Source: an uncultured Gammaproteobacteria bacterium (GTDB lineage Bacteria > Patescibacteriota > Patescibacteriia > S139-126). Taken from it: 53,433 nt of DNA. The notes under the pieces were generated by a model that did no database searches, had not been told where the DNA came from, and was given only the letters and a program-made list of their open reading frames with translations. Shown here piece by piece: positions 48,782-51,052 of the stretch (position 1 is the stretch's first letter; each line of letters opens with the position of its first letter). Location of the stretch: NCBI GenBank assembly GCA_964493305.1, contig CAZBLW010000002.1, positions 21,244 to 74,676 of the forward strand, in the 5' to 3' direction. The position numbers and the translations under genes are program-made.

Positions 48782-49219
48782 TCATCGCTTATTTTTTATA
48801 TTTTTCAATCTATTTATGATCTTTTTAATTTGTTTTTCGTTTAGTATTTTCCTAGGTTGACCACGATGATCAAGATTGCCAATGTGAGTATTGGGAATTA
48901 AATGGAAATGTAAATGTTTGATACTTTTACCTGTGCCAGTTAGACTTCCATCTCTAACCAAAATACTTATATTTTTTATTTTTAATTGATGGAGTCTAGA
49001 TATGCCTTGGCGAATTAATTTATCAATGTCTTTTTGTTCCCCGGGATTTAAATGTAAAAAAGATATCACATGTCTTTTGGGTATAACTAATAAATGATAA
49101 GGATGATAGGGTGCTAAGGCAAAAGTAAGATAAGCTGTTTTATTTTGTAAAAAAATTTCTTGCTGACAATTACAAAATGGACATTTTTTAAGTCGTTTTA
49201 CAAAGTTACTATAAAGCAT
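48782..49219 (-). CDS. HIT-family nucleotide hydrolase
   Basis: CPFC, H-LVIPKRH, HLHFHLIP. Confidence 0.93.
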   Translation of the reverse strand: MLYSNFVKRLKKCPFCNCQQEIFLQNKTAYLTFALAPYHPYHLLVIPKRHVISFLHLNPGEQKDIDKLIRQGISRLHQLKIKNISILVRDGSLTGTGKSIKHLHFHLIPNTHIGNLDHRGQPRKILNEKQIKKIINRLKNIKNKR

Positions 49220-49272
49220 AAAAGTATTTTATATATTTATTAATATTATAGCATTTTTGTACTTTTTTTTAC

Positions 49273-49329
49273 TTATCCACAGGTTATTCAATAACAACTA
49301 TTGACCAATAAATTTTGATAGTGTAATGT
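49273..49329 (+). promoter_or_regulatory. Perfect DnaA box followed by a sigma70 promoter
   Basis: TTATCCACA at 49273-49281; TTGACC (49301) - N17 - TAATGT (49324). Confidence 0.6.
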
Positions 49330-49335
49330 AGTCAA

Positions 49336-49630
49336 TACCGAAAGTAAAAATTTTGAATCTTGTTCTTTAAAATTCCCTATTAGGGAAACAAAACTCCCAA
49401 TTAGGGAAAAATTAATTCGCGGTGCGGAAAATAGATATTAAGTGGATCATATGGTCAAAAAATAAAACGAAACGAATGCCTCTGGCAAACGACTTCCGAA
49501 GAAGTACACTTAATTATCTCAAATAATCAAATTTTTTCCGCAAGGAGACTCCAGCAAGATTCATTTAAACCCGTCTACCAAGACATTTTCTATATAACCA
49601 TAGGAAATCTGTCTCAGACGGGTTTTTTTC
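49336..49630 (+). ncRNA. Candidate structured non-coding RNA of unknown family
   Basis: No ATG-initiated ORF over ~20 codons on +. Stems 49354-62/49555-63, 49423-31/49534-42 and 49437-44/49507-14, four small hairpins, and a 59-nt terminal hairpin plus T run. Confidence 0.6.
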
Positions 49631-49701
49631 TTGCCAAAAAAACAAATAAGCTATAAGATAATTTAATTCATTTTCATTAACAATTATTATTGGAGGTAAT
49701 C

Positions 49702-50310
49702 ATGGAGTTTATAGCTCTAGGCTTATTAGCTTATTTAATCGGTTCGATACCGTTTGGCTATCTGATTGCCAAACATAATCAGGTTGATATTCAAAAAGTA
49801 GGTAGCGGTAATATTGGCGCTACTAATGTGTTTAGAACTTTGGGTGCTAAGTGGGGCACTTTGACATTGGTTTTGGATGTGGCTAAAGGTTTTTTGGCTA
49901 TCAGTTTAGTAAATATTTTTTTTGCAGAACCCATGGTTGGTTATTATATTTTGGCTGGTAGTCTAGCTATCATTGGTCACTTTAAACCAGTTTGGTTAAA
50001 CTTCAAAGGTGGTAAAGTAGTTGCCACATCTTTAGGAGTTTTGTTGGGTCTGAGCCCAGCTTGGTTTATAGTCATAATCTTGTCAGTTTTTGTACTGACC
50101 ATACTACTGGCCAAAAAATTTGGTTCCCAAAAAATTGCTGCTCAAAAAGTAGCCTTAGGTTCAATACTAGCAGCTATCTCAGCGGTAGTTGTAAAAATAA
50201 TTTTTGGTGGTGGTTTTAACCAACAAAATTTTGAAATTACCATATTTATAATTGGTATCACTATCATTATTTTACTGGCCCATAAAGACAACATCAAAAA
50301 AATTATCTAA
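49702..50310 (+). CDS. plsY: Glycerol-3-phosphate acyltransferase PlsY (start probably ATG 49702 after GGAGGT)
   Basis: YLIGSIPFG, GSGNIGATNVFR, D-AKG, GHFKP---FKGGK-VAT; slightly short C-terminus (HKDNIKKII*). Confidence 0.93.
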   Translation: MEFIALGLLAYLIGSIPFGYLIAKHNQVDIQKVGSGNIGATNVFRTLGAKWGTLTLVLDVAKGFLAISLVNIFFAEPMVGYYILAGSLAIIGHFKPVWLNFKGGKVVATSLGVLLGLSPAWFIVIILSVFVLTILLAKKFGSQKIAAQKVALGSILAAISAVVVKIIFGGGFNQQNFEITIFIIGITIIILLAHKDNIKKII

Positions 50311-50725: not shown

Positions 50726-51052
50726 TTAGTTCCAATTTCTTTGTCGGTTGCCACCACCACCAAAACCGCGACCACGATTGCCGAAATCCCGGCGAGGTCT
50801 GTCAGTCATTGGTCTGGCTTCACTCACAGTGATAGTGCGGCCATCAAGCTCTTTGCCATTGAAAGTAGTAATAGCATTTTCAGCTTCTTCATCTGTAGAC
50901 ATTTCTACAAAGCCAAAGCCTTTTGATCGGCCTGACATTTTGTCTGTGATGATGATGGCAGATTCTACATTACCAGCTTGAGAAAAGGCTTCTTGCAAGC
51001 CTTCTTGAGTGGTGTTGTAGGATAATCCACCGACGTAAAGTTTTTTTGCCAT
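50726..51052 (-). CDS. RRM (RNP-1) RNA-binding protein with Gly/Arg tail
   Basis: RNP2 LYVGGL, RNP1 KGFGFVEM, RG/GGG tail. Confidence 0.98.
   Translation of the reverse strand: MAKKLYVGGLSYNTTQEGLQEAFSQAGNVESAIIITDKMSGRSKGFGFVEMSTDEEAENAITTFNGKELDGRTITVSEARPMTDRPRRDFGNRGRGFGGGGNRQRNWN

What the first reader, a model, noticed from the sequence alone, without database searches (positions are those of the whole stretch)
49273..49630. Self-contained, ORF-free ~290-nt structured RNA behind a DnaA-boxed promoter
Seen: a perfect DnaA box (49273-81), a TTGACC-N17-TAATGT promoter, and then a region with no substantial + strand ORF. It has a closing stem TGAATCTTG/CAAGATTCA (49354-62/49555-63), twin near-identical hairpins TTCCCT-att-AGGGAA and TCCC-aatta-GGGA, and nested stems TGCGGAAAA/TTTTCCGCA and ATTAAGTG/CACTTAAT. 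These enclose a multiloop with three mini-hairpins and an A-rich linker. It ends in a three-segment 59-nt hairpin (49567-49625) with a T run; plsY has its own promoter (TTGCCA-N17-TAAGAT, 49631-59). I found no RNase P (GAGGAAAGUCC), SRP, tmRNA, T-box or hammerhead core. Inference: an undescribed ncRNA, possibly replication-linked. One loop reads cUUCGg on the minus strand, so the strand is not certain.
Basis: partly seen in the sequence, partly recalled or inferred. Interest (0 to 1): 0.75.

Follow-up and report, generated by a model that had tools for sequence, protein, structure and literature searches.

The report
Abundant new structured RNA, Patescibacteria
The flagged stretch is a real gene for a roughly 276-base, heavily folded non-coding RNA that matches no known RNA family, occurs only in a narrow group of ultra-small (Patescibacteria/CPR) bacteria, and is by far their most abundant transcript seen in the stretches examined in wastewater RNA data sets; its function is unknown.

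Summary

**Structure.** The + strand folds far better than shuffled sequence, with z -6.9 to -8.2 in the window and -5.9 to -8.4 in nine relatives.

**Conservation.** The element sits upstream of plsY in ten distinct relatives (PlsY 69-93% identical) and is single copy. It is more conserved than plsY third codon positions. Twelve helices are kept through compensatory changes: 98% of 604 pair cells are paired and 25 of 79 pairs changed on both sides. G-U pairs, the promoter and the terminator all point to the + strand.

**Known families.** Rfam 15 gives no match, in the window or in six relatives.

**Expression.** In RNA runs of nine studies, contigs cover only this RNA and not the flanking genes. 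Word depth reaches 2,000-3,500 in one study and above 100,000 in another. The RNA begins about 20 nt after the -10 box, so it is 5'-processed. Where the 3' end is covered, it ends in the terminator U-run.

**Verdict.** This is an independent, abundant ncRNA gene of a new family. I think it most likely binds protein, as a scaffold or sponge. The replication link rests only on a conserved DnaA-box-like promoter element. Back-joined "circular" contigs in one study are probably artefacts.

The parts
49273..49287 (+). Conserved upstream promoter element TTATCCACAGGTTAT. Its first 9 nt are a perfect DnaA-box consensus, always 19 nt before the -35 box.
   Evidence: the only perfect copy in the window; conserved in the relatives read (L086/L088 have TTATCAACA) while the flanks vary. 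It is kept where the HIT gene is absent.
49301..49329 (+). Promoter: -35 TTGACC (49301-06), 17-nt spacer, -10 TAATGT (49324-29). Predicted start near 49336.
   Evidence: TTGACC is invariant and the -10 is kept as TAAnGT in the relatives. Not listed by the consensus scan, because the -10 matches only 3 of 6.
49337..49347 (+). Small 5' leader hairpin (UAC-CGAAA-GUA). It is present in the primary transcript but absent from the abundant RNA.
   Evidence: The stem covaries in relatives (UACCA/UGGUA in L089, UACCU/AGGUA in L093, UUACC/GGUAA in L085). RNA contigs start after it.
49350..49625 (+). Stable RNA, about 276 nt. The 5' end is at A49350 (by homology to L097 8657). The 3' end is in the U-run after the terminator.
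   Evidence: Searches give the ends in L097 (8657/8658 and 8935-8938). One search gives an exact 195-nt RNA contig at 49355-49549 from the window's own strain.
49354..49362 (+). P1 closing stem, 5' strand (pairs with 49555-49563).
   Evidence: 9 bp. Three relatives have A to G, giving G-U, which is possible only on the + strand.
49373..49407 (+). Variable domain: hairpins V1 (49373-87) and V2 (49395-407). Each is a YCC...GGR stem followed by an A-run. Relatives carry 1 to 4 or 5 such hairpins.
   Evidence: stems covary (UCCCU/AGGGA, AUCCU/AGGAU, CCUCU/AGAGG, CCUUU/AAAGG, CCUAC/GUAGG). The copy number differs between close relatives.
49423..49431 (+). P3, 5' strand (pairs with 49534-49542).
   Evidence: G-C changes to A-U in four relatives.
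49437..49444 (+). P4, 5' strand (pairs with 49507-49514).
   Evidence: inner part AAGUG/CACUU versus GAGUG/CACUC. The outer part has a different sequence in each lineage but is always complementary.
49445..49505 (+). Apical multiloop: hairpin Ha (49445-56), conserved A-rich strand AAAAAAUAAA (49457-66), hairpin Hb (49477-87), AACG linker, hairpin Hc (49492-505).
   Evidence: Hb covaries, with GNRA loops GCAA or GUAA in three relatives. The outer pair of Hc switches A-U to U-A.
49514..49526 (+). Hairpin Hd on the 3' side between P4 and P3. In the window it competes with an outer extension of P4.
   Evidence: UUAU/AUAA, AUUU/AAAU, GCU/AGC, GCUU/AAGC, GCUUU/AAAGC, GUAC/GUAC in relatives.
49534..49563 (+). 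P3 3' strand (49534-42), conserved joining strand AAGGAG... (49542-54), and P1 3' strand (49555-63).
   Evidence: UUUCCGYAAG and CAAGAUUCA are invariant in all the relatives.
49567..49629 (+). Conserved three-segment intrinsic terminator hairpin (49567-49625) and T-run (49623-29). It is kept as part of the RNA.
   Evidence: RNA contigs of X12, X25 and X26 end at the homologous GGG(UUU).
49631..49659 (+). plsY's own promoter (TTGCCA-N17-TAAGAT), abutting the terminator T-run. It is not part of the RNA.
   Evidence: Conserved in relatives.

Best explanation
49350-49625 (+) is a stand-alone gene for a stable, highly structured, very abundant non-coding RNA of a family not yet described.

Shown: it is conserved, single copy and on the + strand in ten relatives of one narrow Patescibacteria clade, always just upstream of plsY. 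Its fold is kept by compensatory changes. The fold consists of a closing stem P1, a variable array of YCC/GGR hairpins with A-rich tails, P3-P4, a three-hairpin apical junction, a side hairpin Hd, and a long terminator hairpin. In RNA runs of nine studies the RNA, but not its neighbours, is assembled, at depths far above those of neighbouring mRNAs.

Inferred: it is transcribed from the TTGACC-N17-TAAnGT promoter, which carries a fixed DnaA-box-like upstream element. It is cut about 14 nt downstream of the start, just after a small conserved leader hairpin. It ends at its own intrinsic terminator, and plsY uses its own promoter.

Mechanism, inference only (about 35-40% of my belief): it acts in trans as a protein-binding RNA. 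The conserved core would be a scaffold. The reiterated hairpins with A-rich tails, whose number varies between strains, would be repeated docking sites that hold or titrate an RNA-binding protein, as in CsrB/RsmZ- or 6S-type sequestration. The partner is unknown. The highly expressed RRM protein two genes downstream is one candidate.
For: Fold: z -6.9, and -5.9 to -8.4 in all ten sequences.

Homologs and synteny. Single copy: nhmmer.

Covariation: an automatic RNAalifold run on a MAFFT alignment recovers P1, V1, P3, Ha, Hc and the terminator, with 4 pairs changed on both sides. My curated helix table has 79 pairs and 604 cells, 98.3% paired against 89.3% in shuffles (0 of 2000 reach it), and 25 pairs with two-sided changes against 12 (0 of 2000).

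Purifying selection: RNA identity is 76-88% against plsY third positions at 44-78%.

Strand: 13 G-U cells against 5 A-C cells.

No known family. No phage, plasmid or viral match.

Expression: the window's own RNA is an exact 195-nt contig, and the only other exact own-strain contig in the 38 kb laid is on a tRNA gene. For the relative L097, contigs cover only 8652-8938, at depth 2065, 3487 and up to 1.8e5, with zero on the flanks in the true RNA libraries. The neighbouring RRM mRNA is at 274-358.

Ends.

Not essential housekeeping: one lineage carries internal deletions and another lacks Hc and V2.
Against: The function is not tested at all, and no partner protein is identified.

The GGA/GGR motifs lie in stems rather than loops, unlike CsrA sites. 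The overall shape is a branched junction rather than the 6S rod.

All expression evidence comes from assembled contigs, which have no strand information and only crude depth.

The 5' processing is inferred from contig starts and joint positions, not from 5'-end mapping.

The RNA is always next to plsY, so a cis role cannot be fully excluded. With only ten close relatives, some covariation counts reflect shared ancestry. My curated helix registers were chosen by eye.
Confidence: 0.8

Rival explanations
1. It is a clade-specific functional analogue of 6S RNA or Ms1. An abundant RNA binds RNA polymerase. P1 would be the closing stem, the large asymmetric loop between P1 and P3 would be the 'bubble', and P3-P4 would be the internal stem.
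For: Very high abundance and 5' processing resemble 6S. There is a coarse three-part layout. No 6S match was found in the window. The stretch another reader proposed as 6S (8242-8520) has no RNA cover in four runs.
Against: The Rfam 6S models give no match even at E<=10, in the window and in six relatives. The 5' side of the 'bubble' holds 1 to 5 hairpins and varies in length by more than 50 nt. The apex is a three-hairpin junction, not a loop. One lineage has lost much of the apical part.
Confidence: 0.12
2. It is a cis-acting leader (riboswitch or attenuator) of plsY. The structured domain senses a signal and the long hairpin is a regulated terminator.
For: It is always directly upstream of plsY, in the same orientation, and ends in a strong terminator. 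An earlier first-stage note on a relative proposed the same alternative.
Against: A conserved -35/-10 pair lies between the terminator and plsY. No RNA contig crosses the terminator even at depth 2,000 to 100,000. I found no conserved alternative pairing that could act as an antiterminator (by eye on the sequences). The copy number of the hairpins varies, which is unusual for an aptamer. Relatives with more distant PlsY (56-64%) have no such element upstream.
Confidence: 0.06
3. It is a base-pairing regulatory sRNA that acts on mRNAs through its conserved single strands (AAAAAAUAAA, AACG, AAGGAG).
For: It has its own promoter and terminator, is specific to one clade, and has conserved unpaired stretches.
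Against: About 276 nt with at least ten conserved helices is far more structure than a seed-carrying sRNA needs. The conserved strands are purine- and A-rich and of low complexity. Its abundance exceeds that of any plausible target. No target search was possible.
Confidence: 0.12
4. The RNA is covalently circularised in the cell. The processed 5' end is ligated to the terminator 3' end, and this would explain its extreme stability and abundance.
For: Contigs in X25 (308 nt) and X12 (312 nt) are exactly circle + 30 nt (k-1), joining 8935 to 8658 and 8938 to 8657. In X12 the depth is only 53, so the joint is not extremely rare there. In the fold both ends meet at the P1/terminator junction. The DNA is linear and single copy.
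Against: It is seen in only one of nine studies. The two joints differ by 3-4 nt. X35 joins an unrelated sequence at exactly 8657, and X35 and X42 show other internal back-joints. That pattern is what template switching on a very abundant RNA would give. The circle has no stop-free frame, so it is not a Neo-like template.
Confidence: 0.12

Closest known systems
Orphan abundant structured ncRNAs known from metagenomes and metatranscriptomes (IMES-1 to -4, and large orphan classes such as raiA, OLE, ROOL and GOLLD; from my own knowledge of Weinberg et al. 2009/2017 and Shi et al. 2009, not re-read here)
   Same: Found in uncultivated bacteria. It has a complex multi-helix fold supported by covariation and extreme abundance in environmental RNA. 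There is no associated protein gene and no known function.
   Different: No sequence or structure match to any of them in Rfam 15. The distribution is much narrower: ten distinct sequences in one clade, and only 2 hits in 241 million metagenome records. It has a clear sigma-70-type promoter, a retained terminator and 5' processing.
6S RNA (RF00013 and relatives) and Ms1 of mycobacteria
   Same: An abundant, stable, 5'-processed RNA of about 200-300 nt, closed by a stem that pairs the 5' and 3' regions, with a large asymmetric internal loop.
   Different: It is branched rather than a rod. The 'bubble' carries a variable number of hairpins. There is no model match, and binding to RNA polymerase is not tested.
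CsrB/RsmZ/RsmY-type protein-sponge RNAs
   Same: An array of short hairpins with a reiterated purine motif (GGR + A-run), whose number differs between close relatives. It has its own promoter and a Rho-independent terminator, and is highly abundant.
   Different: The GGA lies in the 3' half of the stems, not in the loops. A large conserved non-repetitive core is attached.
Riboswitch or attenuator leaders ending in an intrinsic terminator
   Same: Structured domain plus terminator directly upstream of a metabolic gene.
   Different: The downstream gene has its own conserved promoter. No read-through is detected, and there is no evident antiterminator.

Membership tests
Any Rfam 15 family (4227 covariance models) | Score at or above the family's gathering threshold. 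| tested here: not met
   One search finds only tRNAs in the window. (E<=10, 601 nt) gives chance-level hits of 16-18 bits against thresholds of 41-94. (six relatives) finds nothing in the RNA apart from a terminator-like match at its 3' end (20.6 bits against a threshold of 41).
6S RNA | Covariance-model match (RF00013, 6S-Flavo and others). | tested here: not met
   No 6S hit at E<=10 or E<=5.
6S RNA | Rod-like fold: closing stem, central bubble, internal stem, terminal loop. | tested here: inconclusive
   P1, the large internal loop and P3-P4 fit coarsely. The loop carries 1 to 5 hairpins and the apex is a three-hairpin junction.
6S RNA | Binds the RNA polymerase holoenzyme and templates product RNAs. 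| not testable with these tools
   Needs biochemistry or small-RNA sequencing.
RNase P RNA, SRP RNA, tmRNA | Model match and universal core motifs (P4 GAGGAAAGUCC / ACAGAA; SRP domain IV; tRNA-like end with a tag ORF). | tested here: not met
   No hits, and the motifs are absent on reading. One lineage carries internal deletions, which argues against an essential RNA. The genome-wide search for the canonical genes could not be run.
Riboswitch or attenuator leader of plsY | Transcript continuous with the downstream gene under some condition, and alternative terminator/antiterminator folds. | tested here: not met
   No contig crosses the terminator in the true RNA runs. plsY has its own conserved promoter. 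I found no conserved antiterminator by eye. Contigs cannot exclude rare read-through.
CsrB/Rsm-type sponge RNA | Multiple A(N)GGA motifs exposed in hairpin loops or linkers, and a cognate CsrA/RsmA protein. | tested here: inconclusive
   GGA/GGR motifs are reiterated 3-6 times, but in stem 3' halves. The presence of CsrA in the genome is not testable here.
Natural circular RNA | Reproducible 3'-to-5' junction in RNA but not in DNA, independent of the library method. | tested here: inconclusive
   The junction appears in two runs of one study. It is absent in 12 runs of eight other studies, some of them too shallow or not reaching the 3' end. The DNA is linear.
Mobile-element guide RNAs (omega/reRNA, bridge RNA, retron msr-msd, DRT2 ncRNA) | Adjacent IscB/TnpB, IS110 recombinase or reverse transcriptase gene; for DRT2, a stop-free concatemer frame. 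| tested here: not met
   The neighbours are an ABC exporter, a HIT protein, PlsY, a 96-aa protein and an RRM protein. No stop-free frame in the circle. No phage, plasmid or viral match.

The most novel reading that the evidence does not exclude
A bacterial ncRNA of a new class is the dominant non-ribosomal transcript of a clade of episymbiotic ultra-small bacteria. It is made hyper-stable by covalent circularisation of its processed 5' end to the terminator 3' end. It is switched by DnaA through the conserved box at its promoter, so that replication status sets the level of an RNA that sequesters a key RNA-binding protein.
Probability: 0.07. Interest if true: 0.85.

Novelty: new variant of a known kind. 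Interest (0 to 1): 0.62.

Why it matters
I found no described ncRNA of this kind for Patescibacteria/CPR bacteria, which have tiny genomes and no genetics. Four literature searches turned up nothing.

A complex-folded RNA of about 276 nt out-numbers every neighbouring mRNA in wastewater and bioreactor RNA data sets from nine studies. It is therefore likely to be important for the physiology of these organisms. It also adds a new entry to the short list of large, orphan structured RNAs.

It is easy to test. It is abundant in accessible sludge communities, its ends are mapped to within a few bases, and it has a clear covariation-supported fold. That makes it suitable for probing, pull-down and structural work.

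It also gives a concrete promoter architecture for these bacteria: a DnaA-box-like element, then -35 and -10.

The limits are a narrow phylogenetic spread and no functional clue beyond its anatomy.

Tried and rejected
- **Genome-wide searches.** I could not check whether canonical 6S, RNase P, SRP or tmRNA genes, or CsrA or Hfq, exist elsewhere in the genome.
- **Raw reads.** All RNA runs are held as contigs, so there is no strand information, no true depth profile and no joint frequency.
- **More distant relatives.** The single genome-contig scan with PlsY gave only one close relative. The other 79 loci were distant PlsY genes, mostly of Verrucomicrobiota and Kiritimatiellia. The metagenome pattern scan gave 2 loci, one of them a duplicate. 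The last contig look-up, a 67%-identical ABC exporter, hit a contig that ends 153 nt before the region of interest.
- **Automatic alignment.** MAFFT misaligns the variable helices. I used a curated helix table instead.
- **Coding readings rejected.** There is a 34-aa GTG ORF in the window and 63-65-aa ORFs in L001. Neither is conserved, and the indels are not multiples of three.
- **Neo-like concatemer ORF rejected**.
- **Second copy or repeat family rejected**.
- **Phage, plasmid or viral origin rejected**.
- **Replication origin rejected:** one box only and no GC-skew turnover.
- **Literature:** nothing on ncRNAs of these bacteria.

Full report
**1. What is in the sequence**

The 482-bp spacer 49220-49701 lies between a HIT-family gene on the minus strand (48782-49219) and plsY on the plus strand (49702-50310).
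- the 9-mer TTATCCACA at 49273-81;
- TTGACC-N17-TAATGT at 49301-29;
- the closing stem 49354-62 / 49555-63;
- the two CCC/GGG hairpins;
- the nested stems 49423-31 / 49534-42 and 49437-44 / 49507-14;
- three small apical hairpins;
- a 59-nt three-segment hairpin followed by seven T;
- a second promoter, TTGCCA-N17-TAAGAT, in front of plsY (also listed).

The + strand RNA folds to -82 kcal/mol against -51 for dinucleotide shuffles, z -6.9. The minus strand gives z -4.2. There is no conserved ORF.

**2. It matches no known RNA family**

Rfam 15 at gathering thresholds finds only tRNAs in the window. A permissive search of the 601 nt (E<=10) gives only chance-level hits. A permissive search of six relatives finds nothing in the element apart from a terminator-like match at its 3' end, far below threshold. 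There is no match in the phage, plasmid or viral collections.

**3. It is conserved, single copy, and confined to one narrow clade**

The host is a Patescibacteria (CPR) bacterium. Named homologs of the neighbouring ABC exporter are 'Patescibacteria group bacterium' and 'Candidatus Kerfeldbacteria'.

PlsY has only about 20 relatives above 56% identity among 5.8 billion proteins. I fetched the DNA around 13 of them. Every locus with PlsY at 69% identity or more carries the element directly upstream of plsY on the same strand: L001, L081, L084, L085 (identical to L097), L086 (identical to L088), L087, L089, L093 and L096. The three loci with PlsY at 56-64% identity do not.

The HIT gene is absent in four of the loci, so the element travels with the plsY side. 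An nhmmer profile finds exactly one copy per locus and none elsewhere in the window or in 80 other plsY loci. A 24-base pattern from the RNA finds only two contigs in 241 million metagenome records and none in the viral contigs.

RNA identity to the window is 76-88%. plsY third codon positions are only 44-78% identical, so the RNA sequence is under purifying selection.

**4. The fold is kept by compensatory change**

All ten sequences fold far better than shuffles, z -5.9 to -8.4 on the + strand.

RNAalifold on an automatic MAFFT alignment recovers P1, V1, P3, Ha, Hc and the three terminator segments. Four pairs changed on both sides, for example G-C to A-U in P3 in four sequences. MAFFT misaligns the length-variable helices, so I tabulated twelve helices by hand and checked that the strands occur in the sequences:
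- 79 pairs and 604 cells, 98.3% paired against 89.3% after shuffling the 3' partners (0 of 2000 shuffles reach it);
- 25 pairs with changes on both sides against a mean of 12 (0 of 2000).

Two entries in the table were flagged by that check. The first P1 base of L096 is C, not U, which gives one more C-A cell. The L081 P4 strand was written with its bulged A skipped.

The clearest cases are these:
- P4 outer part: GAUGUA/UACAUC, GAG/CUC, UGUA/UACA, UAGA/UCUA, AAUA/UAUU;
- Hb: UGCC/GGCA, UGC-GCAA-GCA, UUGUU-GCAA-AACAA, UGUU/AACA;
- Hd: GCUUU/AAAGC, GCU/AGC, GUAC/GUAC, AUUU/AAAU;
- V1: UCCCU/AGGGA, AUCCU/AGGAU, CCUCU/AGAGG, CCUUU/AAAGG.

Two caveats apply. I chose the helix registers by eye. The ten sequences are related, so cell counts overstate the number of independent events.

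**5. Strand**

There are 13 G-U cells but only 5 A-C cells in the + strand model. P1 in three relatives reads UGAGUCUUG/CAAGAUUCA, which pairs only on the + strand. Together with the upstream promoter and the 3' end in the U-run, this settles the + strand. The cUUCGg loop on the minus strand is simply the complement of the CGAA loop of Hc.

**6. It is a discrete and extremely abundant transcript**

The runs are held as assembled contigs, so depth is crude and there is no strand information.

In sludge metatranscriptome X12, the window's own strain gives an exact 195-nt contig at 49355-49549 (depth 12). In the 38 kb of window that I laid, the only other exact own-strain contig lies on a tRNA gene.

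The L097-type relative is found in RNA runs of nine studies. In every true RNA library the contigs cover only 8652-8938, with zero on both flanks:

| Run | Word depth on the RNA |
|---|---|
| X25 | 2065 |
| X26 | 3487 |
| X12 | 53 |
| X35 | 137-433 |
| X31, X33, X41 | 31-45 |
| X43 | up to 1.8e5 |

The highly expressed RRM-protein mRNA two genes downstream reaches 274-358 in the same study. Three runs labelled 'metagenomic RNA-Seq' (X27-X29) show flat cover of 2-7 across genes and spacers and behave as DNA. They show that the DNA is linear and single copy.

**7. Ends**

RNA contigs begin at 8652-8659 in ten libraries and never at the predicted start near 8642. Four libraries mark 8657 or 8658 specifically, as a contig start, a chimera point or a joint. 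This is 21 nt after the -10 box. The stable RNA is therefore cut just after the small leader hairpin, whose stem nevertheless covaries. In window coordinates the 5' end is A49350.

In study P5 the RNA runs to GGG(UUU) of the terminator, at window 49622-49625. In eleven shallower libraries the contigs stop at 8858-8907, just after the 3' strand of P1. Either a form of about 215 nt without the terminator hairpin also exists, or reverse transcription through the hairpin is poor. I cannot tell which.

**8. The 'circular' contigs**

In X25 and X12 the contigs are 278 + 30 and 282 + 30 nt long and join 8935 to 8658 and 8938 to 8657. That is the signature of a circular k = 31 path. In the fold the two ends meet at the P1/terminator junction, so ligation would be sterically easy.

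Several points argue against a natural circle:
- The joints differ by 3-4 nt.
- They occur in one study only.
- X35 joins an unrelated sequence at exactly 8657.
- X35 and X42 show other internal back-joints.

This pattern fits template switching at the 5' end of a hyper-abundant RNA. I give a true circle about 12%. The circle has no stop-free frame.

**9. Promoter element**

TTATCCACA is the only perfect copy in 53 kb. One chance copy would not be surprising, since the count with up to one mismatch is as expected (18 against 18.3). However, the block TTATCCACAGGTTAT is conserved while its flanks vary. It always lies 19 nt before the -35 box, and it is kept where the HIT gene is missing. It is therefore a promoter element, and by sequence a DnaA site.

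It is not an origin. There is a single box, and GC skew stays positive across the window. A link to replication remains a hypothesis.

**10. What it most likely does**

The independent promoter, the strong terminator with no read-through, plsY's own conserved promoter and the abundance together argue for a trans-acting stable RNA rather than a plsY leader.

The size and the number of conserved helices argue for a protein-binding RNA rather than a seed-pairing sRNA.

Two observations argue against an essential housekeeping RNA and for an accessory regulator or scaffold. First, close relatives differ in hairpin number: one in L084, two in the window, four or five in L081. Second, one lineage (L086/L088) carries a version with internal deletions.

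The hairpin array (YCC...GGR stems with A-rich tails) looks like reiterated docking sites. The conserved core (P3-P4, Ha, the AAAAAAUAAA strand, Hb often with a GNRA loop, Hc, Hd, the AAGGAG strand) would be the scaffold. I therefore favour sequestration or scaffolding of an RNA-binding protein, at about 35-40%. A 6S-like polymerase binder, a pairing sRNA, a circular form and a cis leader are rivals.

**11. Novelty**

This is a new RNA family of a known general kind: an orphan, abundant, structured bacterial ncRNA. As far as four literature searches show, no ncRNA of this sort has been described for Patescibacteria.

Earlier first-stage notes on two other genomes flagged the same spacer upstream of plsY. 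They agree that the region is conserved and structured, but they are not independent evidence.

Noticed in passing
L086 1172-1429 (= L088), L087 1153-1429, L084 1159-1429: One lineage carries versions of the RNA with several small internal deletions. In L086/L088, Ha, part of Hb, the Hc loop and the 3' strand of P4 are lost. L084 lacks Hc and V2. Promoter, P1, P3 and terminator stay intact. These copies are either decaying or show that the apical domain is dispensable.
   Followed up: partly
L081 1112-1230 versus L093 and the window: L081 is the closest relative by PlsY (93%) and has a terminator identical to the window's. Yet its 5' variable domain (extra hairpins, AUGCAACGCAU, ACGG/CCGU in P3) resembles that of the most distant relative, L093 (69%). 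The RNA looks mosaic, as if its 5' domain had been exchanged by recombination.
   Followed up: no
window 48782-49219 (HIT-family gene): The 145-aa HIT gene between the ABC exporter and the RNA is present in the window, L001, L089 and L093. At the same position L085 has a 152-aa gene with no Pfam hit. No gene is called there in L081, L084, L086 and L096. This is a presence/absence polymorphism within one clade.
   Followed up: partly
window 50726-51052 (-): The 108-aa RRM protein with an RGG-rich tail is the only other strongly expressed feature of this region in the sludge metatranscriptomes (depth 274-358). It is a candidate partner for the RNA.
   Followed up: no
window 49702-50310: PlsY of this clade is isolated. 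About 20 proteins reach 56% identity or more, and then identity drops to 45% or less. Beyond the one close relative, the best hits in species-representative genomes are mostly Verrucomicrobiota, Kiritimatiellia and Lentisphaerae at about 40%. That may mean horizontal acquisition.
   Followed up: no
window 49620-49645: The terminator T-run runs straight into plsY's -35 box (GGGTTTTTTTCTTGCCAAAAAAA), and this 23-mer is nearly invariant in relatives. Termination of the very heavily transcribed RNA gene happens on top of the plsY promoter, so interference is possible.
   Followed up: no
window 8242-8520: The stretch that another first-stage note proposed as 6S RNA has no Rfam 6S match even at E<=10, and no RNA contig at 85% likeness or more in four metatranscriptomes.
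   Followed up: partly
L097 8758-8864 and 8694-8761: Further back-joined RNA contigs in other studies: X35 has a 107-nt circle-like contig at depth 433, and X42 joins 8761 to 8694. They are probably library chimeras on a hyper-abundant RNA, but they are unexplained.
   Followed up: no
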